DNA of 64,000 nucleotides from NCBI GenBank assembly GCA_905478765.1, contig CAJQJY010000003.1, positions 10,488 through 74,487 of the forward strand. The letters run 5' to 3'. A model generated the notes under the pieces. It worked only from the letters and a program-made list of their open reading frames with translations, did no database searches and was not told where the DNA came from. This DNA comes from an uncultured Flavobacteriales bacterium. GTDB lineage: Bacteria > Bacteroidota > Bacteroidia > Flavobacteriales > BACL11. Made by a program: the position numbers and the translations under genes. This document shows positions 53,167-59,657 of this stretch, piece after piece. The stretch's first letter is position 1. Each line of letters opens with the position of its first letter.

Positions 53167-54627
53167 TTAATTATATTCATAAGCTCCTATGTCAGGGTTG
53201 CTTCTAGGATTTCCTTGAATGTCAGAACTAAATTCAGTTGAATTGTTGCCAGTATTAATAGCAGGAGAGTTGTCGTTTAAATGAAAGTTATTTTCGTTAG
53301 CATCAATAAATTTTGGCGATTGGTTAATTATTGAATTGATGTAATTTTCATTATCCGTATCAATTGTTGGGTCAAGCTTGATGAGACAATGGTCAAAAGT
53401 ATAATTGAATTCGCCTAGTTCCTGTTCCTGAAAACTCACTTCAGTAGACAGTGAGCCATAAATAATGCAATTAGTAAAATTGACTGCATCCAAATCCCTA
53501 ATATAAATATTTCCATCTGTACCTTCATAAAAGTTATTTAGCTGTATAGATGGCGTGTTTCTGTTGTTATAATCCCAGTAGTTAGCAAAAGTACAATGTG
53601 TAAAGTTATATGTGCCTCCAATATTGCAGGCTACCGTGTACTGTCCGCATTTGCTTACAATTGTATTAGAAGCTGCTATTTTAGCTCCCTGTCCTAAAAT
53701 GCCAATAGATGACATATTTTCTATAATAGTATTATTGATTGTTACGGTTGGGTTGCTGTTGGCTACTGAGTCGGCACGAATAGCAGTTGTTCCATTACTG
53801 ATTATTGCATAGTCAATTGTGTTATTAATGCTTCCTTGTACAAAATGTATTCCATTCCACTGTCCTGGGATATTTTCGTACCAAGAGTCTAATCGGTCAC
53901 CTCTTATAATTACCTCATTTCCTAAACTCCCATTAATTATTAGGGTTCCGTTATTTGTTGGTGTCTCTCCATTCTCACCTATTAAAAGAGGATTTCCAAC
54001 AAACATTCCAGAATTATTATGAAAATAGATTTTAGTTCCTTCTTCAATAGTTAGGGTAGCATTGGGTTCAATTACTACATATCCGTAAATAACATGGGGA
54101 AGGTCATTTGTCCAAGTAGTGTTTTCTGATATGGAGAAATACTTATAATTGATACTATCAGTTCCATCAGTAAAAATGTTGTCATAAGGTAAGTGAAAGT
54201 TCGCATTTCTTGCAGGGGATACTAGCTTAACATCTTGTTTTTTATTTCCTGTAGTAAACTCAATATTACTTGTAAGTAAAAAATCATTACTACTATTTTG
54301 GTTAGGCGTAACTTCTAAGAAAATGAAAATACTATCCTTAGCAGGAATTTCAATTGCGTTATGGTAGTTTCCTGCAACACCATCAACATTCATTCTGAAG
54401 CTACCACCACTTATTAGGTTTAAGGCTATATCAGTAAGAACAGTGAAGTTATTGCGATTATATATAGTAAGTGTTTGAGTAGGAGTTCCTATTGAATGAA
54501 AAGCAGTATCAAAAATGATGGTGTCATTTGAAAAATGCAAAGTAGCACTTTGGTTGCTTTCTAAAACATCTTTTTTACAAGCAAAAAGAATTGTTATAAC
54601 TAGTAAAAGAAGGAATAGTTTTTTCAT
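53167..54627 (-). CDS. Right-handed parallel beta-helix repeat lipoprotein
   Basis: Lipobox ILFAC. Repeated N.I....G-type PbH1 turns (NNTIIENMSSIGILGQGAKIAASNTIV...). Its start overlaps the smpB stop (TAATG). Confidence 0.7.
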   Translation of the reverse strand: MKKLFLLLLVITILFACKKDVLESNQSATLHFSNDTIIFDTAFHSIGTPTQTLTIYNRNNFTVLTDIALNLISGGSFRMNVDGVAGNYHNAIEIPAKDSIFIFLEVTPNQNSSNDFLLTSNIEFTTGNKKQDVKLVSPARNANFHLPYDNIFTDGTDSINYKYFSISENTTWTNDLPHVIYGYVVIEPNATLTIEEGTKIYFHNNSGMFVGNPLLIGENGETPTNNGTLIINGSLGNEVIIRGDRLDSWYENIPGQWNGIHFVQGSINNTIDYAIISNGTTAIRADSVANSNPTVTINNTIIENMSSIGILGQGAKIAASNTIVSKCGQYTVACNIGGTYNFTHCTFANYWDYNNRNTPSIQLNNFYEGTDGNIYIRDLDAVNFTNCIIYGSLSTEVSFQEQELGEFNYTFDHCLIKLDPTIDTDNENYINSIINQSPKFIDANENNFHLNDNSPAINTGNNSTEFSSDIQGNPRSNPDIGAYEYN

Positions 54628-55079
54628 TATCTCATATTTCTTATTCTATCCATATCTCGTTTTTGGTCTTTTTCTTTTATACTTTCTCTTTTATCGTACA
54701 CCTTTTTTCCTTTGGATAAAGCTATTTCTAGTTTTACTCTTCCTTTTTCGTTAATAAAGAGACGAATAGGAATAATAGAATTTCCTTTTTCAGTTACTTT
54801 CCCTAACATTTTGTTTAGTTCTTGTCTGTTAAGTAATAGTTTTCTTTCCCTTTTAGGCTCGTGATTAATGTAGCCACCATTAGGATATTCAGAGATATGC
54901 AAGTTTTTCACAAATAATTCATCACCATTGAAAACGCAATGTGCATCAGAAATATTGGCTTTATTGTTGCGAATAGACTTTATTTCTGTTCCTACTAGAG
55001 ATATTCCTGCAACAAATTTAGCAATAAACTCATATTCAAAGCTTGCTTTACGGTTTTTAATGTTGATTTTAACTGACAT
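54627..55079 (-). CDS. smpB: SsrA-binding protein
   Basis: 150 aa. NRKASFEYEF...GTEIKS...KLLLNRQE signature and a basic C-terminal tail. Confidence 0.95.
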   Translation of the reverse strand: MSVKINIKNRKASFEYEFIAKFVAGISLVGTEIKSIRNNKANISDAHCVFNGDELFVKNLHISEYPNGGYINHEPKRERKLLLNRQELNKMLGKVTEKGNSIIPIRLFINEKGRVKLEIALSKGKKVYDKRESIKEKDQKRDMDRIRNMR

Positions 55080-55084
55080 ATTTG

Positions 55085-55092
55085 CAAAGATA
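55085..55092 (-). promoter_or_regulatory. Putative -7 promoter box for smpB
   Basis: TATCTTTG on the - strand, 5 nt (caaat) before the ATG. Confidence 0.4.
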
Positions 55093-55125
55093 GTATTTAG
55101 ATGTTAGATATTAGAAGTTAGACAA
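55091..55125. repeat. Five TAG-phased heptamers TAGTATT TAGATGT TAGATAT TAGAAGT TAGACAA
   Basis: Read directly from the sequence with exact 7-bp phase. It overlaps the smpB -7 box at one end and the TTAGACA half-site at the other. Confidence 0.9.
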
Positions 55126-55143
55126 AAATGTCTCATGTCTAAA
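55118..55143. promoter_or_regulatory. Split copy of the TTAGACA / CATGTCTAAA metalloregulator-type site
   Basis: TTAGACA-aaaatgtct-CATGTCTAAA. The 10-mer CATGTCTAAA and the 7-mer TTAGACA are identical to the halves of the perfect palindrome at 56723-56738. Confidence 0.4.
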
Positions 55144-55159
55144 TAGTTAATGCTAAAAT

Positions 55160-56026
55160 CTATCCTAATGCTACATCAAGAACCATCATTACAATAAATC
55201 CTGCAATTAGTCCCATTGTAGCTAAATCCGTATTTCCTCCCCTTTGGCTTTCAGGGATTACTTCTTCAACTACAATAAAAATCATTGCTCCTGCTGCAAA
55301 AGACAGAGCATAAGGTAAAATAGGAAGAACTGTCATTACAATAGCAGCTCCAATTACTGCAAAAATTGGCTCAACTATTGCAGATAATTGTCCCCATTTC
55401 CATGATTTCCATCTGCTAACACCTTGTCTTCTAAGTGGCATTGAAACTGCAAATCCTTCAGGGAAATTTTGTATACCTATACCAATTGCTAGTGCAATTG
55501 CTGATCCTATTGTAAATACTGAATGTCCTTCCATTCCTAATATTTCAGGATTAGCCAATGCTCCAAATGCAACTCCAACTGCTAATCCTTCAGGAATATT
55601 ATGTAAAGCAATTGCTAGTACTAAAAGAATAGTTTTACGCCAGTTTGTTTCAACTCCCTCTGCTTCTTCTCTTTTTGCAAATATGTGTAAGTGAGGTATA
55701 ATTTTATCTAACCCAAACAAGAAAGCAGCTCCTAAAAAGAAGCCAATAGCAGGAGCAAGCCATACGGGTGAATCTGACATTCCCATTTCATTTTGCATTT
55801 CAACATAAGCAATTGATGGTGCTAAAAGCGACCAAAAACTAGCAGCAATCATAACTCCTCCAGTAAATCCTAATGAAATATCCAATGCTTTACGGTTACT
55901 TGTTTTGAAAAAGAAAACCAATGCAGCACCAAGAGCAGTTAGTCCCCAAGTAAAAAGTCCTGCATAAAGGGCTTGCAATACAGGTCCTTGTTGAACAAAC
56001 CATTTGTATAATTCGTAATTTTCCAT
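55160..56026 (-). CDS. ZIP family divalent metal transporter
   Basis: 288 aa, about 8 TM helices, HNIPEGLAVG and QNFPEGFAV signature helices. Confidence 0.85.
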   Translation of the reverse strand: MENYELYKWFVQQGPVLQALYAGLFTWGLTALGAALVFFFKTSNRKALDISLGFTGGVMIAASFWSLLAPSIAYVEMQNEMGMSDSPVWLAPAIGFFLGAAFLFGLDKIIPHLHIFAKREEAEGVETNWRKTILLVLAIALHNIPEGLAVGVAFGALANPEILGMEGHSVFTIGSAIALAIGIGIQNFPEGFAVSMPLRRQGVSRWKSWKWGQLSAIVEPIFAVIGAAIVMTVLPILPYALSFAAGAMIFIVVEEVIPESQRGGNTDLATMGLIAGFIVMMVLDVALG

Positions 56027-56028
56027 GT

Positions 56029-56685
56029 CTAATTTGTTTTAATTAAAAGGTGTTTTGCTACATCATTACTGATGTGTTGTTTGGTATTTACTATTTTGAT
56101 ACTGATTGATTGATCAAAAGGTATCTTTTCTAAAAGCTTAATTTCTGTCCCTATGCTGATATTTAACTTTGTTAAGTAATCTAAAAATGGCTTTTCATCT
56201 AATGTTACTCCCATAACCTTTCCATTTGTTCCTTCTGATAATTTATTTAAAGGTATAGTATTTGTTGTTGGGATTTTTCCATCTTTTGCAGGTATAGGCT
56301 CTCCATGGGGGTCAAATTTTGGGCAATCTAAAAAGGTATCTAATCTGTCTACAAGTTCTTCTGATTTTATGTGCTCTAATTGTTCGGCTACATCATGTAC
56401 TTCTCCCCAATCAAAGTTTAAGTTATTCACTAAAAAAGTTTCCCATAATCTATGTTTTCTTATTACTGATGTTGCAAAAGAGTTTCCTTTTTTTGTTAAT
56501 GATACACCTTTGTATTTCTTGTATTTGACAAGTTTTTTGTCTTGCAATTTCTTTAGCATATCTGATACTGATGCTGCAGTTGTTCCAATTTCTCCTGCAA
56601 TTGCATTGGTAGAAACTTTTCCATCAAAATTTAAACTAATGGATAAAATAGCTTTTAAATAATTTTCTTCTGCTAAAGTAATCAT
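56029..56685 (-). CDS. DtxR/MntR family metal-dependent transcriptional regulator
   Basis: 218 aa. N-terminal wHTH (ENYLKAI...VSTNAIAGEIGTTAASVSDMLKKL), a dimerisation/metal-binding domain (HRLWETFL...EQLEH) and a FeoA/SH3-like C-terminus. 2 nt upstream of the ZIP gene. Confidence 0.85.
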   Translation of the reverse strand: MITLAEENYLKAILSISLNFDGKVSTNAIAGEIGTTAASVSDMLKKLQDKKLVKYKKYKGVSLTKKGNSFATSVIRKHRLWETFLVNNLNFDWGEVHDVAEQLEHIKSEELVDRLDTFLDCPKFDPHGEPIPAKDGKIPTTNTIPLNKLSEGTNGKVMGVTLDEKPFLDYLTKLNISIGTEIKLLEKIPFDQSISIKIVNTKQHISNDVAKHLLIKTN

Positions 56686-56689
56686 GTGG

Positions 56690-56697
56690 CAAAAGTA
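56690..56697 (-). promoter_or_regulatory. Putative -7 promoter box for the regulator-ZIP operon
   Basis: TACTTTTG on the - strand, 4 nt (ccac) before the ATG at 56685. Confidence 0.4.
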
Positions 56698-56722
56698 ATA
56701 ATTATATTAATATAAAAAAAAG

Positions 56723-56738
56723 TTTAGACATGTCTAAA
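56723..56738. promoter_or_regulatory. Perfect 16-bp palindrome TTTAGACATGTCTAAA, candidate DtxR/MntR-family operator
   Basis: Read directly from the sequence. It lies centrally in the 99-bp divergent region between the regulator-ZIP operon and the TonB-dependent receptor. Its TTAG...CTAA ends resemble DtxR-type boxes. Confidence 0.6.
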
Positions 56739-56784
56739 AATTAAGATATTTGCCATGCTTAAATGAAATCAAAAAAACTAAAAA

Positions 56785-59082
56785 ATGAATAAAATAATTA
56801 ACCTATTAATAATTGCATTTGTCATATTTTCTTTAACAGCAAATTCGCAGACAATAAAAGGAAAAATAACATCCAAAAATGAAGTTGTACCTTTCGCAAA
56901 CATCATTATTGAAGGAACAAAATTGGGTGTTTCGACTGATGAGAATGGAAGTTATATTATTGAAAATGCACCATTAGGTCATCATCATATTATTGTATCA
57001 GCAGTTGGAATGATAACTAAGAAGTCTTATAATGTTGTTAATAAAGGAATAAATAATATTAATATTATGTTAGTAGCATCTGTATATAATTTGGATCAAG
57101 TTGTAGTTACAGGAACTAAAACATTTAAGAGAAGAACGAAATCTCCAGTAATTGTAAATGTGATGGATAGCAGACAATTAGAAAATGTTCAAGCTTGTAA
57201 TTTGGCAGAAGGTCTTAATTTTCAGCCAGGATTAAGGGTCGAGACTGATTGTCAAACTTGTAATTATACTCAATTGAGAATGAATGGATTGGCTGGGGGT
57301 TATTCTCAAATCCTTATAAACGGAAGGCCAATTTTTAGTCCTTTAACAGGGCTATATGGGATGGAGCAAATCCCTATTAATATGATTGATAGGATTGAAA
57401 TTGTAAGAGGAGGAGGTAGTTCGCTTTACGGCTCATCAGCAATAGGAGGAATAGTAAATGTAATAACTAAATTACCTACTACTAATAATTTTAGTTTTGG
57501 ATATGATTATAGTAGAATCAATAGCTCGGCTGATGATAAGGTTTTTCATGGCAATGCAACTGTTGTATCTGATAATAAAAATTCAGGAGCTACATTTTTT
57601 GTAAACAATCGTGATAGAATGTGGTACGATCATAATGGAGATAATTACTCAGAATTACCTGTTTTAAAAGACAATACTTTTGGGGCTAATTTCTTTTTCG
57701 TACCATCTAAAAATCAAAAAATAGAAGTAAATATGGGTAGTTTGCATGAGTATCGTTTTGGTGGAGAAATGATTACAGGTGCGCCACATTTTGCAATGCA
57801 ATCAGAAGAAAGAGTGCATGATGTGCTTTTAGGAAATATAGATTATCAAATTAATTTTAATGATGGTAACTCATCTCTTGTTACTTATTTAGCAGCACAA
57901 CAAACTAAGCGTGAGCATTATACTGGTATCAGACCAGAGGTTGGGTCTGCTGAAGAGCATTTGGCTAATCCTCCTTATGGAACTTCATTAAACACAACTA
58001 AGCAAGGTGGTTTTCAGTTGAATCATAAGATAAATAAGTTGTTTGGTCCAAATGTATTTACAATTGGTTCTGAGTATGTTTTTGATGATGTAATGGACGA
58101 AATCTCAGCTTATAATTATTTAATTGACCAAAAAGTAATAACTCTTGGTACTTTTGTTCAGTCTGACTGGGATTTGACAGAAAACTTTAATCTACTTTGT
58201 GGGGCAAGATTTGATAAGCATTCGTTATTAGAAAATATGGTGGTTAGTCCTAGGTTGTCATTGCTTTATAAATTAAGGAAAGAAACTCAATTTAGAATAT
58301 CATACAGTACAGGGTTCAGGGCACCACAAGCTTTTGATACTGATTTGCATATGGCATTTGCTGGGGGTGGAATTTCTCGTATTTTTTTGGCTGATGATTT
58401 GAAAGAAGAACGTTCAAAAAGTTTAAGCGCATCTATTAATTATGATAAAGCAACTGAGCATTATGTTTATGGTTTTACTTTTGAGGGTTTTTACACGTAT
58501 TTGAATTATGCATTTTATCAAGATCCATCTGGAGAAGATGAATTTGGAGAGGTTTTTACAAAAAGAAATGGAGCTGGAGCTAATGTAAAAGGTCTTACTA
58601 TGGAATTTAGAGCAAATTTAGAGCAAAAACTGCAGATAGAATCTGGTTTAACTTTGCAAAGATCATTGTACGATGAGGCGGTAAGTTATTCTGATGAGCT
58701 TGAGAGTAGAAAAGAATTTTTAAGAACTCCAAATAAGTACGGTTATGCTACTTTAACTTACTCTCCTACTAACAAATTAAGTTTTTCTGCAAATTTAGTA
58801 CATACAGGCGTTATGGATATATTGCATTTAGCTGGCGCTCCTGAGCAAACTAAGGATGAATTCATAAAATCACCTACATTTAATGTAATTGGACTAAAAG
58901 CAACTTACATACAGCAATTGAGTAGAGTAGGAACTAAATTAGCATACAGTGTTGGGATTAAGAATTTAACTAATGATTATCAGCAAAATCTTGATACTTT
59001 AAAAGACAGAGATAGTAACTTTGTTTATGGACCTAATTTACCAATAACAGTATACTTTGGATTAGTGCTAAAATCTCTTTAA
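56785..59082 (+). CDS. TonB-dependent receptor with an N-terminal CarboxypepD_reg domain
   Basis: 765 aa. Signal peptide, a carboxypeptidase-regulatory-like domain, a plug (DRIEIVRGGGSSLYGSSAIGGIVNVIT) and a 22-strand barrel ending in an aromatic-rich C-terminus. Confidence 0.9.
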   Translation: MNKIINLLIIAFVIFSLTANSQTIKGKITSKNEVVPFANIIIEGTKLGVSTDENGSYIIENAPLGHHHIIVSAVGMITKKSYNVVNKGINNINIMLVASVYNLDQVVVTGTKTFKRRTKSPVIVNVMDSRQLENVQACNLAEGLNFQPGLRVETDCQTCNYTQLRMNGLAGGYSQILINGRPIFSPLTGLYGMEQIPINMIDRIEIVRGGGSSLYGSSAIGGIVNVITKLPTTNNFSFGYDYSRINSSADDKVFHGNATVVSDNKNSGATFFVNNRDRMWYDHNGDNYSELPVLKDNTFGANFFFVPSKNQKIEVNMGSLHEYRFGGEMITGAPHFAMQSEERVHDVLLGNIDYQINFNDGNSSLVTYLAAQQTKREHYTGIRPEVGSAEEHLANPPYGTSLNTTKQGGFQLNHKINKLFGPNVFTIGSEYVFDDVMDEISAYNYLIDQKVITLGTFVQSDWDLTENFNLLCGARFDKHSLLENMVVSPRLSLLYKLRKETQFRISYSTGFRAPQAFDTDLHMAFAGGGISRIFLADDLKEERSKSLSASINYDKATEHYVYGFTFEGFYTYLNYAFYQDPSGEDEFGEVFTKRNGAGANVKGLTMEFRANLEQKLQIESGLTLQRSLYDEAVSYSDELESRKEFLRTPNKYGYATLTYSPTNKLSFSANLVHTGVMDILHLAGAPEQTKDEFIKSPTFNVIGLKATYIQQLSRVGTKLAYSVGIKNLTNDYQQNLDTLKDRDSNFVYGPNLPITVYFGLVLKSL

Positions 59083-59104
59083 TTAGTTACTTAAATATAA
59101 ATTT

Positions 59105-59131
59105 AAAAGCCACTTAATAAGTGGTTTTTTT
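59105..59131 (+). terminator. Rho-independent terminator
   Basis: CCACTT aat AAGTGG hairpin followed by T7. Confidence 0.8.
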
Positions 59132-59357
59132 ATGTAAAAATTAACTTTTGTAAACAAAGTTAGGTATAATTTGATATGAGTTTTTTGTAATTTACAGAAT
59201 TTTTAGTAAGATCAATGTATTATATTTGTTTTCAGTAATTTATAGTATTTATATGTAATGCTTGTTACGTTCTTTTATAAAGAAATCAGAACAATAATAT
59301 TAAAATATAAAAACAAATTTGTAGTTTTGCTGTTAACAATTGTAAATAGTAAAGTAA

Positions 59358-59657
59358 ATGCACGAAAGGCTCAAAAATTGGATGGGAATAGAAAGCTTAA
59401 AATCCTCAGCTTTGGCGGATAGTATTGGCGTGAATCGTGCAACAATCTCGCATATACTTTCTGGTCGAAATAAGCCAAGTATCGACTTTTTAGAAAAGCT
59501 ATTGAATGTGTATCCTAACATAAATGCCAACTGGTTAATTAGCGGAATTGGTTATATGCAGGACAATATGGATCAAAAAGAGGTACTTGTTTCAAAGAAA
59601 ATAGGCAAAGTTGTTGTGTTTTATGATGATAATTCCTTTGAAGAAGTAGGTGAGTAG
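59358..59657 (+). CDS. XRE-type helix-turn-helix protein
   Basis: 99 aa. SALADSIGVNRATISHILSGRNKPS is an HTH_XRE core. A TAGTTTTG -7 box lies 28 nt upstream. Confidence 0.8.
   Translation: MHERLKNWMGIESLKSSALADSIGVNRATISHILSGRNKPSIDFLEKLLNVYPNINANWLISGIGYMQDNMDQKEVLVSKKIGKVVVFYDDNSFEEVGE

What the first reader, a model, noticed from the sequence alone, without database searches (positions are those of the whole stretch)
56723..56738. Perfect 16-bp palindrome TTTAGACATGTCTAAA centred between divergent promoters of a DtxR-family regulator/ZIP operon and a TonB-dependent receptor
The palindrome lies 25-41 bp upstream of the TACTTTTG -7 box of the regulator gene. It also lies 6 bp upstream of a GATATTTG -7-like box (56745-56752) facing the receptor gene. 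It therefore overlaps the -33 region of both promoters. Its TTAG...CTAA ends resemble DtxR/IdeR-type operators. This is the expected geometry for autoregulation plus co-repression of both transcription units by one metal-sensing dimer.
Basis: partly seen in the sequence, partly recalled or inferred. Interest (0 to 1): 0.55.

Follow-up and report, generated by a model that had tools for sequence, protein, structure and literature searches.

The report
Operator of a manganese-type metal repressor
The 16-bp palindrome is almost certainly the DNA site where the neighbouring DtxR/MntR-family metal sensor binds to shut off an outer-membrane receptor gene and its own regulator–ZIP transporter operon; it is a real, strongly conserved site, but an ordinary example of a well-known kind of switch.

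Summary
In detail: TTTAGACATGTCTAAA lies at 56723-56738, 25 nt from the regulator's TACTTTTG box and 6 nt from GATATTTG facing the TonB-dependent receptor gene. A perfect 16-bp palindrome alone is not significant here (about 2.7 expected per window). Conservation is decisive. TTAG-N6-CTAA lies within 300 bp upstream of the orthologous regulator in 70 of 80 Bacteroidota loci, about 150-fold denser than elsewhere in those loci. All 71 strong matrix hits sit in front of the regulator's transcription unit. The window holds one site.

The regulator's closest solved relatives are manganese sensors (M. tuberculosis MntR, SloR, DR2539, ScaR). The published DR2539 operator, ATTTTAGTCGCGCCTAAAAT, has the same TTTAG-N6-CTAAA layout. 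The DtxR/IdeR iron-box spacing does not fit.

Partner genes in relatives are metal importers (ZIP, NRAMP, TroA-type binding proteins), often with a divergent TonB-dependent receptor.

Most likely mechanism: one metal-loaded dimer covers the -33 region of the receptor promoter and abuts that of its own operon, repressing both. Mn2+ is the likeliest signal, but Fe2+ or Zn2+ is not excluded.

Verdict: real and correctly interpreted, a new member of a known kind. No binding or expression data exist.

The parts
56723..56738 (.). 16-bp perfect palindrome TTTAGACATGTCTAAA. It is the core operator: two TTTAG(A/G)(C/T) half-sites with centres 11 bp apart.
   Evidence: TTAG-N6-CTAA is conserved upstream of the orthologous regulator in 70 of 80 loci. 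In an unbiased dyad enumeration it occurs in 67 of 74 upstream regions and 0 of 342 control regions.
56721..56740 (.). 20-bp extended operator as scored by the position weight matrix (AGTTTAGACATGTCTAAAAA), including the A/T-rich flanks.
   Evidence: It scores 23.8 bits, against a training median of 24.0. The next best hit in the window is 7.4 bits, and the best of 100 shuffles is 18.2.
56690..56697 (-). Bacteroidota-type -7 promoter box TACTTTTG (TAnnTTTG) of the regulator–ZIP operon. It lies 25 nt downstream of the operator and ends 4 nt before the ATG, so the mRNA is probably leaderless.
   Evidence: The box is conserved in the clade alignment A5. The TAnnTTTG consensus comes from established knowledge of Bacteroidota sigma-A promoters. 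No transcription start data are available.
56698..56722 (-). 25-nt spacer between the operator and the regulator's -7 box. It holds the T-run that would serve as the -33 element directly next to the operator, and it is nearly invariant in relatives.
   Evidence: Alignment A5. The 58 nt from operator to ATG are nearly invariant at 76-90% protein identity. That the T-run is the -33 element is inferred.
56745..56752 (+). -7-like box GATATTTG (one mismatch to TAnnTTTG) of the TonB-dependent receptor gene, 6 nt from the operator.
   Evidence: The same variant box (CAAATATC on the other strand) is conserved in L201, L203, L205, L206 and L171, and the perfect TACTTTTG or TATTTTTG form occurs at the same place in L003, L004, L005 and L001. 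In 24 other loci an exact box lies 6-9 nt from the operator.
56029..56685 (-). DtxR/MntR-family metalloregulator of 218 aa with three domains: winged HTH, dimerisation/metal-binding, and a FeoA/SH3-like C-terminal domain. It is the presumed binder of the operator.
   Evidence: Pfam. NCBIfam best hit is the Thermus-type MntR model, below its cutoff. Closest solved structures are Mn sensors: 5zr4 at 1e-39, SloR, DR2539 (8pvt) at 3e-29, and ScaR; IdeR and DtxR score only 1e-15 to 1e-12. Metal ligands are listed.
55160..56026 (-). ZIP/ZupT-like divalent-metal importer. It begins 2 nt after the regulator's stop codon, so the two genes are co-transcribed.
   Evidence: A ZIP gene lies directly downstream of the regulator in 26 of 71 loci.
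56785..59082 (+). TonB-dependent outer-membrane receptor with an N-terminal CarboxypepD_reg domain and a CxxC motif (C156-C159) in the plug. It is transcribed divergently from the operator.
   Evidence: The divergent neighbour is a receptor of this architecture in 23 of 51 loci. The CxxC is conserved in 20 of 26 of them.

Best explanation
The palindrome is the operator of the adjacent three-domain DtxR-family regulator, which is MntR/TroR/DR2539-like.

Proposed mechanism:
- When the cytoplasmic metal is sufficient, one metal-loaded dimer places its two recognition helices on the TTTAG half-sites. The half-site centres are 11 bp apart, so both lie on the same face of the DNA. Mn2+ is the most likely metal.
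- The bound dimer covers about -19 to -34 of the receptor promoter. This includes the TTTA that would serve as the -33 element.
- At the regulator–ZIP promoter the operator spans about -38 to -53 and lies right next to the -33 T-run. Sigma-A RNA polymerase is excluded from both promoters.
- When the metal falls, the apo-dimer leaves. The cell then makes the outer-membrane receptor, the inner-membrane ZIP importer and more regulator, which is negative autoregulation.

Shown here: the sequence, its geometry, its conservation and exclusive association with this regulator, the family of the regulator, and the match to an experimentally defined operator of a homologue.

Inferred: actual binding, the direction of regulation, the transcription start sites, and the identity of the metal.
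For: 1. Conservation. TTAG-N6-CTAA occurs within 300 bp upstream of the regulator in 70 of 80 genome loci spanning several Bacteroidota orders. Its density there is 3.14 per kb, against 0.021 per kb in the rest of the same loci. The flanking T and A (TTTAG, CTAAA) were not imposed by the search, yet are present in 70/70 and 69/70 sites. An unbiased dyad enumeration ranks TTTA-N8-TAAA and TTAG-N6-CTAA first, at 68/74 and 67/74 upstream regions against 7/342 and 0/342 controls.

2. Specificity. All 71 matrix hits of at least 15 bits in 604 kb lie in front of the regulator's transcription unit. Seventy are directly upstream of the regulator, and one is upstream of an NRAMP-regulator operon. The window has a single site at 23.8 bits; the next best is 7.4.

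3. Regulator family. The closest solved structures are Mn sensors: Mtb MntR 5zr4, SloR, DR2539 and ScaR.
   - Glu101 replaces the Cys102 of iron-sensing DtxR.
   - H78, E82, H97, E104, H105, D125 and H127 are invariant in the 80 loci.

4. Operator match. The DR2539 operator ATTTTAGTCGCGCCTAAAAT was defined by EMSA and a 2.2 A crystal structure of one dimer on a 21-bp DNA (bioRxiv 10.1101/2024.02.12.579695). It has the same TTTAG-N6-CTAAA layout, and the window site matches 12 of its 14 half-site positions. DR2539 Tyr59 contacts the minor groove; it aligns with Tyr58 here, which is conserved in 78 of 80 loci.

5. Partner genes. The gene after the regulator is a ZIP in 26 of the 71 downstream neighbour genes scanned, a TroA/PsaA-type binding protein in 21 and an NRAMP-Usp fusion in 15. 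The divergent gene is a TonB-dependent receptor in 23 of 51.

6. Geometry.
   - The operator always lies 5-10 nt upstream of one -7 box. In 24 loci this is the regulator's own box.
   - In 34 loci (window included) the operator lies 24-31 nt from the regulator's box instead. In 21 of these 34, an exact divergent -7 box lies 6-9 nt away on the other side.

7. Close relatives. The operator and the regulator's promoter are nearly invariant, while the rest of the spacer on the receptor side has diverged.
Against: - There is no binding, footprint, transcription start or expression data for any Bacteroidota member of this group. No paper describing this operator was found in the searchable library.
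- At the regulator's own promoter the operator sits further upstream (-38 to -53) than a classical repressor site. Autorepression may therefore be weak, or may depend on the protein's extended footprint.
- The metal is uncertain.
  - Asn8 replaces the Asp of Mn sensors and the Met of DtxR.
  - All 21 linked ABC binding proteins have the His-His-His-Asp (TroA-type) ligand set rather than the His-His-Glu-Asp set of PsaA/MntC.
  - ZIP transporters have broad specificity.
- The 80 loci were retrieved with peptide patterns that include EENYLKAI, so the invariance of Asn8 is partly a selection effect.
Confidence: 0.85

Rival explanations
1. The operator and regulator are as described, but the physiological signal is Fe2+ or Zn2+, or several metals, rather than Mn2+. 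The locus would then be an iron or zinc uptake switch.
For: - The linked ABC binding proteins all carry the TroA-type His3Asp site (21 of 21). By established knowledge this site binds Zn, Mn and Fe.
- ZIP/ZupT transporters are broad.
- TonB-dependent receptors classically import iron chelates, and the NCBIfam hits here are to siderophore and haem receptors, all far below cutoff.
- Asn8 is an atypical primary-site ligand.
- T. denticola TroR responds to Mn and Fe (PMC2628430), and P. gingivalis MntR binds both (PMC4805248).
Against: - The closest characterised homologues are all Mn sensors, and iron sensors are far more distant.
- Glu replaces the Cys102 that is typical of iron sensing.
- NRAMP, the classical Mn2+ importer, is the operon partner in 15 loci.
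- The binding proteins are closest overall to PsaA, MntC and YfeA.
- From my own knowledge, not tested here, Bacteroidota normally have separate Fur and Zur regulators for Fe and Zn.
Confidence: 0.3
2. The operator controls only the TonB-dependent receptor promoter. The regulator–ZIP operon would be unaffected, or even activated from the upstream position (-38 to -53).
For: - In the divergent arrangement the fixed short spacing (6-9 nt) is kept with the receptor's -7 box, not with the regulator's.
- Positions around -40 to -50 are typical of activators. By established knowledge, some DtxR-family proteins activate from upstream sites: B. subtilis MntR at the efflux genes and IdeR at bfr.
Against: - In loci without a divergent gene the same operator lies 5-10 nt from the regulator's own -7 box, a repressor position. 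Autoregulation is therefore ancestral.
- Metal-dependent activation of an importer would be physiologically perverse.
- The full 58 nt from operator to ATG are under strong constraint in relatives.
- DR2539 was crystallised on a 21-bp DNA, longer than the 16-bp core. A footprint extending past the core would reach the adjacent -33 T-run.
Confidence: 0.12
3. The palindrome is bound by a different transcription factor, such as Fur, Zur or the nearby HTH_3 protein, and its position next to the DtxR-family gene is incidental.
For: No binding data exist. An HTH_3 gene lies downstream of the receptor gene at 59358-59657.
Against: - The motif tracks the DtxR-family gene across orders, whatever the other neighbours are.
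- It also sits next to DtxR-family homologues in high-GC metagenome contigs that are probably not Bacteroidota: L113 at GC 0.71 and L141 at GC 0.67.
- It matches the operator of a structurally characterised homologue.
Confidence: 0.03
4. The palindrome is a chance feature of AT-rich intergenic DNA, or an RNA hairpin or terminator.
For: Perfect 16-bp palindromes are expected about 2.7 times per window of this composition.
Against: - Conservation and roughly 150-fold local enrichment.
- The site lies upstream of both divergent promoters, so it is not expected to be transcribed.
- It has no loop and no T-tract, and no terminator-like site was called there. There was no Rfam hit.
Confidence: 0.01

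Closest known systems
Deinococcus radiodurans DR2539 (Mn sensor) and its operator in the dr1709 (NRAMP) promoter
   Same: - It is a three-domain DtxR-family regulator, the third-best solved homologue at E = 3e-29.
- Its operator ATTTTAGTCGCGCCTAAAAT has the identical TTTAG-N6-CTAAA architecture, and one dimer binds per site.
- The minor-groove Tyr59 aligns with Tyr58 here.
- Its target is a metal importer.
   Different: - The central 6 bp are GC-rich in Deinococcus and (A/G)(C/T)WW(G/A)(T/C) here.
- The fifth residue of the recognition helix is Gly43 in DR2539 and an invariant Asp42 here.
- The primary-site Asp11 is Asn8 here.
- The promoter context is Bacteroidota -33/-7 rather than sigma-70 -35/-10.
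- The site here is shared by two divergent promoters.
Treponema TroR with the troABCD operon
   Same: It is a DtxR-family repressor that is autoregulated within a metal-uptake operon, with a dyad operator at the promoter (PMC2628430). The ABC binding proteins linked to this regulator in relatives carry the TroA-type His3Asp site.
   Different: The Tro operator is an 18-bp dyad of different sequence. The window has a ZIP gene and a TonB-dependent receptor gene instead of an ABC transporter.
DtxR/IdeR iron box (TTAGGTTAGCCTAACCTAA)
   Same: It has a TTAG/CTAA half-site signature, belongs to the same protein family, and represses when the metal is bound.
   Different: - The spacing is different (TTAG-N1/N11-CTAA against N6 here). 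The best match in the intergenic region has 8 mismatches.
- By established knowledge, two dimers bind the iron box.
- The regulator here has Glu, not Cys, at the DtxR-102 position, and scores only E about 1e-13 against DtxR.
Porphyromonas gingivalis PgMntR
   Same: It is the only experimentally studied DtxR-family regulator from Bacteroidota found in the library. It binds the promoter of its own operon, which also encodes a Mn transporter, and Mn2+ enhances binding (PMC4805248).
   Different: - PgMntR has twin FeoA domains, with Asp19 and Cys108 in site 1.
- Its operator sequence was not defined.
- Its partner is FeoB2, not a ZIP or a TonB-dependent receptor.
MntR-controlled TonB-dependent receptor modules in Proteobacteria (Stenotrophomonas maltophilia TBDR-pTFP)
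   Same: A manganese regulator controls an outer-membrane TonB-dependent receptor in addition to inner-membrane importers (abstract of PMC13217887, as listed).
   Different: The MntR there is presumably the two-domain proteobacterial type. That is my own knowledge and I did not check it. The receptor is unrelated in detail and the operator is different.

Membership tests
DtxR/MntR family of metalloregulators (protein) | N-terminal winged helix-turn-helix DNA-binding domain (Pfam PF01325) | tested here: met
   PF01325, E = 2.8e-13, residues 4-61.
DtxR/MntR family of metalloregulators (protein) | Dimerisation/metal-binding domain (PF02742) with conserved His/Glu ligands | tested here: met
   PF02742, E = 9e-30. 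H78, E82, H97, E101, E104 and H105 align with the DtxR and BsMntR ligands and are invariant in the 80 loci.
DtxR/MntR family of metalloregulators (protein) | C-terminal SH3-like/FeoA domain (three-domain subgroup) | tested here: met
   PF04023, E = 9.5e-11, residues 144-216.
DtxR/MntR family of metalloregulators (protein) | Metal-dependent binding to a palindromic operator | not testable with these tools
   This needs EMSA or footprinting. Only co-occurrence has been shown.
Mn-sensing subgroup (MntR, SloR, ScaR, DR2539) | Acidic residue instead of Cys at the DtxR-102 position | tested here: met
   Glu101 in 80 of 80 loci.
Mn-sensing subgroup (MntR, SloR, ScaR, DR2539) | Asp at the N-terminal primary-site position (BsMntR Asp8, DR2539 Asp11) | tested here: not met
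   The residue is Asn8, where Mtb MntR, SloR and DR2539 have Asp. The invariance is partly due to selection by the EENYLKAI search pattern.
Mn-sensing subgroup (MntR, SloR, ScaR, DR2539) | Control of Mn importers (NRAMP or PsaA/MntC-type ABC transporters) | tested here: inconclusive
   NRAMP is the partner in 15 of the 71 downstream neighbour genes scanned. The ABC binding proteins are closest to PsaA and MntC but carry TroA-type His3Asp ligands. The window itself has a ZIP gene.
DR2539-type operator | Inverted TTTAG half-sites separated by 6 bp | tested here: met
   The window site matches 12 of 14 half-site positions of ATTTTAG-N6-CTAAAAT. The family consensus is given.
DtxR/IdeR iron box | 19-bp TTAGGTTAGCCTAACCTAA-like sequence | tested here: not met
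   The best match in the intergenic region has 8 mismatches. The best in the whole window has 5 and lies elsewhere.
Bacteroidota sigma-A promoter | TAnnTTTG -7 box with a T-rich -33 element about 17-21 nt upstream | tested here: inconclusive
   TACTTTTG is exact and GATATTTG has one mismatch. Both are conserved in relatives. There are no transcription start data. The sigma-70 scan is at chance level, as expected for this phylum.

The most novel reading that the evidence does not exclude
Bacteroidota may have built a dedicated two-membrane manganese (or mixed-metal) uptake module under one MntR-like operator. It would consist of a TonB-dependent receptor subfamily with a conserved plug-domain CxxC motif as the outer-membrane gate and a ZIP, NRAMP or TroA-type transporter as the inner-membrane step. 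The sensor would carry an Asn-for-Asp change in its primary metal site that retunes selectivity. This would make energy-dependent outer-membrane Mn acquisition a common trait of marine Flavobacteriales.
Probability: 0.3. Interest if true: 0.55.

Novelty: new member of a known kind. Interest (0 to 1): 0.33.

Why it matters
- It gives a testable operator consensus, TTTTAG(A/G)(C/T)WW(G/A)(T/C)CTAAAA, for a DtxR-family regulator that is widespread in Bacteroidota. More than 7,999 homologues scored E <= 1e-20. As far as the searchable literature shows, no binding site has been described for this group.
- It can be used to annotate metal-uptake regulons in marine and soil Bacteroidota genomes and MAGs.
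- It flags a TonB-dependent receptor subfamily as a candidate outer-membrane manganese or metal gate.
- It does not change what is known about how DtxR-family repressors work.

Tried and rejected
- **Fuzzy search for the 16-mer in the window.** The only other hit, 25117 with 3 mismatches, is at chance level and scores -1.3 bits with the matrix. It is not a site.
- **Palindrome statistics.** A perfect 16-bp palindrome is not significant alone. The second one, 57053 ATAATATTAATATTAT inside the receptor gene, is pure AT and was dismissed.
- **Sigma-70 promoter scan.** Hits are at shuffle level. The TAGACA-16-TATATT hit that overlaps the palindrome was rejected because this phylum uses -33/-7 promoters.
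- **Terminator or RNA element.** No terminator-like site was called at the palindrome. Rfam gave no hit at E <= 0.1 in 54400-59500, so there is no yybP-ykoY Mn riboswitch.
- **DtxR/IdeR iron box and E. coli MntR box.** Neither matches.
- **Metagenome scan with TTTAGACNNGTCTAAA.**
  - Most of the 120 loci are chance matches: 42 of the 122 matches lie in coding sequence and many others lie in unrelated contexts.
  - About 20 loci lie next to a DtxR-family homologue.
  - Other flanking genes include TonB-dependent receptors, NRAMP, ZnuA-type and ABC-3 proteins.
  - This is useful support, but it is not a clean definition of the regulon.
- **Literature.** No paper on this operator or regulator in Flavobacteriia was found. 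The search for the motif string itself returned only irrelevant hits.
- **Closest solved structure of the receptor.** 9gbc and CirA are similar only in the plug and N-terminal regions and say nothing about the substrate.
- **Second operator in the conserved spacer.** The matrix score there is -0.3, so there is none.

Full report
**1. Observation**

The window sequence at 56723-56738 is TTTAGACATGTCTAAA, a perfect 8+8 palindrome. It lies in the 99-bp gap between two divergent genes.
- On the minus strand, 56029-56685 encodes a 218-aa protein with the Pfam domains Fe_dep_repress, Fe_dep_repr_C and FeoA. A ZIP transporter gene (55160-56026) follows 2 nt after its stop codon, and smpB comes next.
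- On the plus strand, 56785-59082 encodes a 765-aa TonB-dependent receptor with an N-terminal CarboxypepD_reg domain.

TACTTTTG (56697-56690, minus strand) starts 25 nt from the palindrome, and GATATTTG (56745-56752) starts 6 nt from it.

A perfect 16-bp palindrome is not in itself unusual in this 32% G+C window. The window has two, and first-order Markov simulations give 2.7 +/- 1.5. The case therefore has to rest on other evidence.

**2. Conservation**

A peptide-pattern scan of one genome per species returned 80 loci encoding relatives of the regulator at 47-82% identity. They come from Flavobacteriales, Saprospiraceae/Lewinellaceae, Sphingobacteriales and Chitinophagales.
- Reading the 160 nt upstream of each showed the same dyad almost everywhere.
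- TTAG-N6-CTAA occurs within 300 bp upstream of the regulator in 70 of 80 loci. That is 3.14 sites per kb, against 0.021 per kb in the other 581 kb of the same loci.
- Of the ten without the exact dyad, three are cut off by the contig end. Two carry degenerate versions: TTAAGTTAACTTAA in L020, and TTTAAACTAATCTAAA in L032 at 13.4 bits. In L061 the site (25.7 bits) lies upstream of an NRAMP gene that precedes the regulator.
- The extra T and A that make TTTAG and CTAAA were not imposed by the search, yet are present in 70/70 and 69/70 sites. The consensus is TTTTAG(A/G)(C/T)(T/A)(A/T)(G/A)(T/C)CTAAAA.
- An unbiased enumeration of all 4-mer dyads with gaps of 0-12 ranks TTTA-N8-TAAA (68/74 upstream regions, 7/342 controls) and TTAG-N6-CTAA (67/74, 0/342) first.
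- With a 20-bp symmetrised matrix (22.6 bits), all 71 hits of at least 15 bits in the 80 loci lie in front of the regulator's transcription unit.
- The window site scores 23.8 bits, against a training median of 24.0. The next best position in the 64 kb scores 7.4, and the best of 100 shuffled windows scores 18.2. The window therefore has exactly one site.

**3. Close relatives**

Loci with 67-90% identical regulators were aligned over the intergenic region.
- The operator and the entire 58 nt down to the ATG are nearly invariant.
- On the receptor side only the -7 box is kept. It is CAAATATC, or CAAAAGTA/CAAAAATA in other members.
- Some close relatives lack the receptor gene altogether (L204, L001) but keep the operator.

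**4. Who binds it**

The regulator's best matches among solved structures are manganese sensors.

| Structure | E-value |
|---|---|
| 5zr4 (M. tuberculosis MntR by my own knowledge; deposited as 'metal-dependent transcriptional regulator') | 1e-39 |
| S. mutans SloR | 1e-31 |
| D. radiodurans DR2539 | 3e-29 |
| S. gordonii ScaR | 8e-26 |
| IdeR and DtxR | 1e-15 to 1e-12 |

The preprint on DR2539 (10.1101/2024.02.12.579695) reports three relevant things.
- The protein recognises ATTTTAGTCGCGCCTAAAAT in the promoter of the NRAMP gene dr1709.
- One dimer sits on the 21-bp DNA in a 2.2 A structure.
- Mutations of the T-run and of A6 were tested by EMSA, and Tyr59 reads the minor groove.

The window site has the same TTTAG-N6-CTAAA layout and matches 12 of the 14 half-site positions. 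Tyr59 aligns with Tyr58, which is conserved in 78 of 80 loci.

The classical DtxR/IdeR iron box has a different spacing and does not match.

The same 16-mer class was also found next to DtxR-family homologues in high-GC metagenome contigs (L113, L141). This suggests the operator type is older than Bacteroidota.

**5. What it controls**

Across the loci, the gene immediately downstream of the regulator (71 such neighbour genes scanned) is one of three kinds of importer:
- a ZIP transporter in 26;
- a cluster A-I metal-binding protein of an ABC transporter in 21;
- an NRAMP-Usp fusion in 15.

The divergent upstream gene is a TonB-dependent receptor with the same domain layout in 23 of 51 loci. 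Exact matches to TTTAGACNNGTCTAAA in metagenomes are mostly chance. About 20 of 120 loci sit next to a regulator homologue, and several others sit in front of TonB-dependent receptor, NRAMP, ZnuA-type and ABC-3 genes.

**6. Geometry and mechanism**

The distance from the operator to the regulator's TAnnTTTG box is bimodal.
- It is 5-10 nt (mode 8) in 24 loci. Only one of these has an exact divergent box 6-9 nt away on the other side.
- It is 24-31 nt (mode 25) in 34 loci, including the window. In 21 of these, an exact CAAAnnTA lies 6-9 nt away on the other side.

So the operator always keeps the short spacing with one promoter. Where a divergent receptor gene exists, that promoter is the receptor's.

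Taking the -7 box as about -12 to -5 (established knowledge of Bacteroidota promoters; no transcription start data here), the positions in the window are as follows.
- The operator covers about -19 to -34 of the receptor promoter. Its distal TTTA lies 18 nt from the -7 box, where the -33 TTTG element belongs.
- The operator covers about -38 to -53 of the regulator–ZIP promoter, directly abutting the T-run that would be its -33 element.

I infer that one metal-loaded dimer occludes the receptor promoter directly and the regulator–ZIP promoter through its extended footprint. This gives co-repression and negative autoregulation. Repression of the regulator–ZIP operon is the less secure half of the model.

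**7. Which metal**

Evidence for Mn2+:
- the nearest characterised homologues are Mn sensors;
- Glu101 stands where iron sensors have Cys;
- NRAMP is a frequent partner;
- the binding proteins are closest to PsaA, MntC and YfeA.

Evidence against certainty:
- Asn8 stands where Mn sensors have Asp and DtxR has Met;
- all 21 linked binding proteins have the TroA-type His-His-His-Asp ligand set;
- ZIP transporters are broad;
- TroR and PgMntR respond to more than one metal.

I put Mn2+ at about 0.65.

**8. Comparison with what is known, and novelty**

This is a standard DtxR-family operator with autoregulated uptake genes. Its closest experimentally defined counterpart is DR2539/dr1709, and its closest counterparts in operon logic are TroR/TroABCD and PgMntR.

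I found no paper describing the site or regulon in Bacteroidota in the searchable library. Curated regulon databases could not be queried. I therefore rate it a new member of a known kind.

The less ordinary aspects are:
- the conserved coupling to a TonB-dependent receptor subfamily that carries a plug-domain CxxC;
- the Asn8 substitution;
- the probable leaderless regulator mRNA.

**9. Verdict**

Confidence that this is the operator of the adjacent regulator is about 0.85-0.9. Interest is modest, at about 0.33.

Noticed in passing
window 56685-56697 (minus strand): The regulator's -7 box TACTTTTG ends only 4 nt before the ATG, so the regulator–ZIP mRNA is probably leaderless or nearly so. 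The same 4-5 nt gap occurs in L001, L003, L004, L006, L068, L044, L053 and L071. L005 has a 24-nt leader instead.
   Followed up: partly
window 56683-56740; alignment A5: The whole 58 nt from the operator to the regulator's ATG, including the spacer block TTTATATTAATTTAATT, is nearly invariant in relatives whose regulators are only 76-90% identical. The receptor side of the intergenic region is poorly conserved. The spacer is more constrained than a simple promoter spacer would need to be, and no second operator was detected there (matrix score -0.3).
   Followed up: partly
window 57250-57261 (receptor residues C156-C159, 'ETDCQTCNY'): The plug domain of the TonB-dependent receptor has a CxxC motif. 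It is conserved at the same position in 20 of 26 receptors that sit divergently to the regulator in other genomes, even at 26-36% identity. It is absent from the closest solved structure, 9gbc. It could be a metal-binding site or a structural disulfide.
   Followed up: partly
L204:1164-1926 and L001, compared with window 56785-59657: The receptor gene is variably present. In L204 (regulator 89% identical) the HTH_3 and dihydroorotate dehydrogenase genes lie directly upstream of the regulator, whereas in the window they follow the receptor gene. L001 has a Phenol_MetA_deg-family outer-membrane protein in its place. The operator is kept in every case.
   Followed up: partly
regulator residue 8 (window 56662-56664, minus strand): Asn stands at the primary metal-site position that is Asp in BsMntR, Mtb MntR, SloR and DR2539, and Met in DtxR. 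It is Asn in all 80 retrieved loci, but the retrieval pattern EENYLKAI biases this count.
   Followed up: partly
L009-L078 (genes downstream of the regulator in Saprospiraceae and others): All 21 ABC-transporter binding proteins linked to the regulator have His at the third ligand position (TSHDAF). This gives a TroA-type His3Asp site, although their overall best structural matches are the Mn-binding PsaA and MntC (His2GluAsp).
   Followed up: yes
L113 (GC 0.71) and L141 (GC 0.67), metagenome contigs: The same TTTAGAC..GTCTAAA palindrome lies directly next to DtxR-family homologues (42-44% identity) in high-GC contigs that are probably not Bacteroidota. This suggests that this operator type is shared across phyla.
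   Followed up: no
L035, L044, L053, L177, L186 (Sphingobacteriales-type loci): In these loci the divergent neighbour of the regulator is a 156-aa Lrp/AsnC-family regulator rather than a receptor, and the regulator is followed by an NRAMP-Usp fusion and smpB.
   Followed up: no
window 57053-57068: This is the second perfect 16-bp palindrome in the window, ATAATATTAATATTAT, inside the receptor coding sequence. It is pure A/T and consistent with chance.
   Followed up: yes
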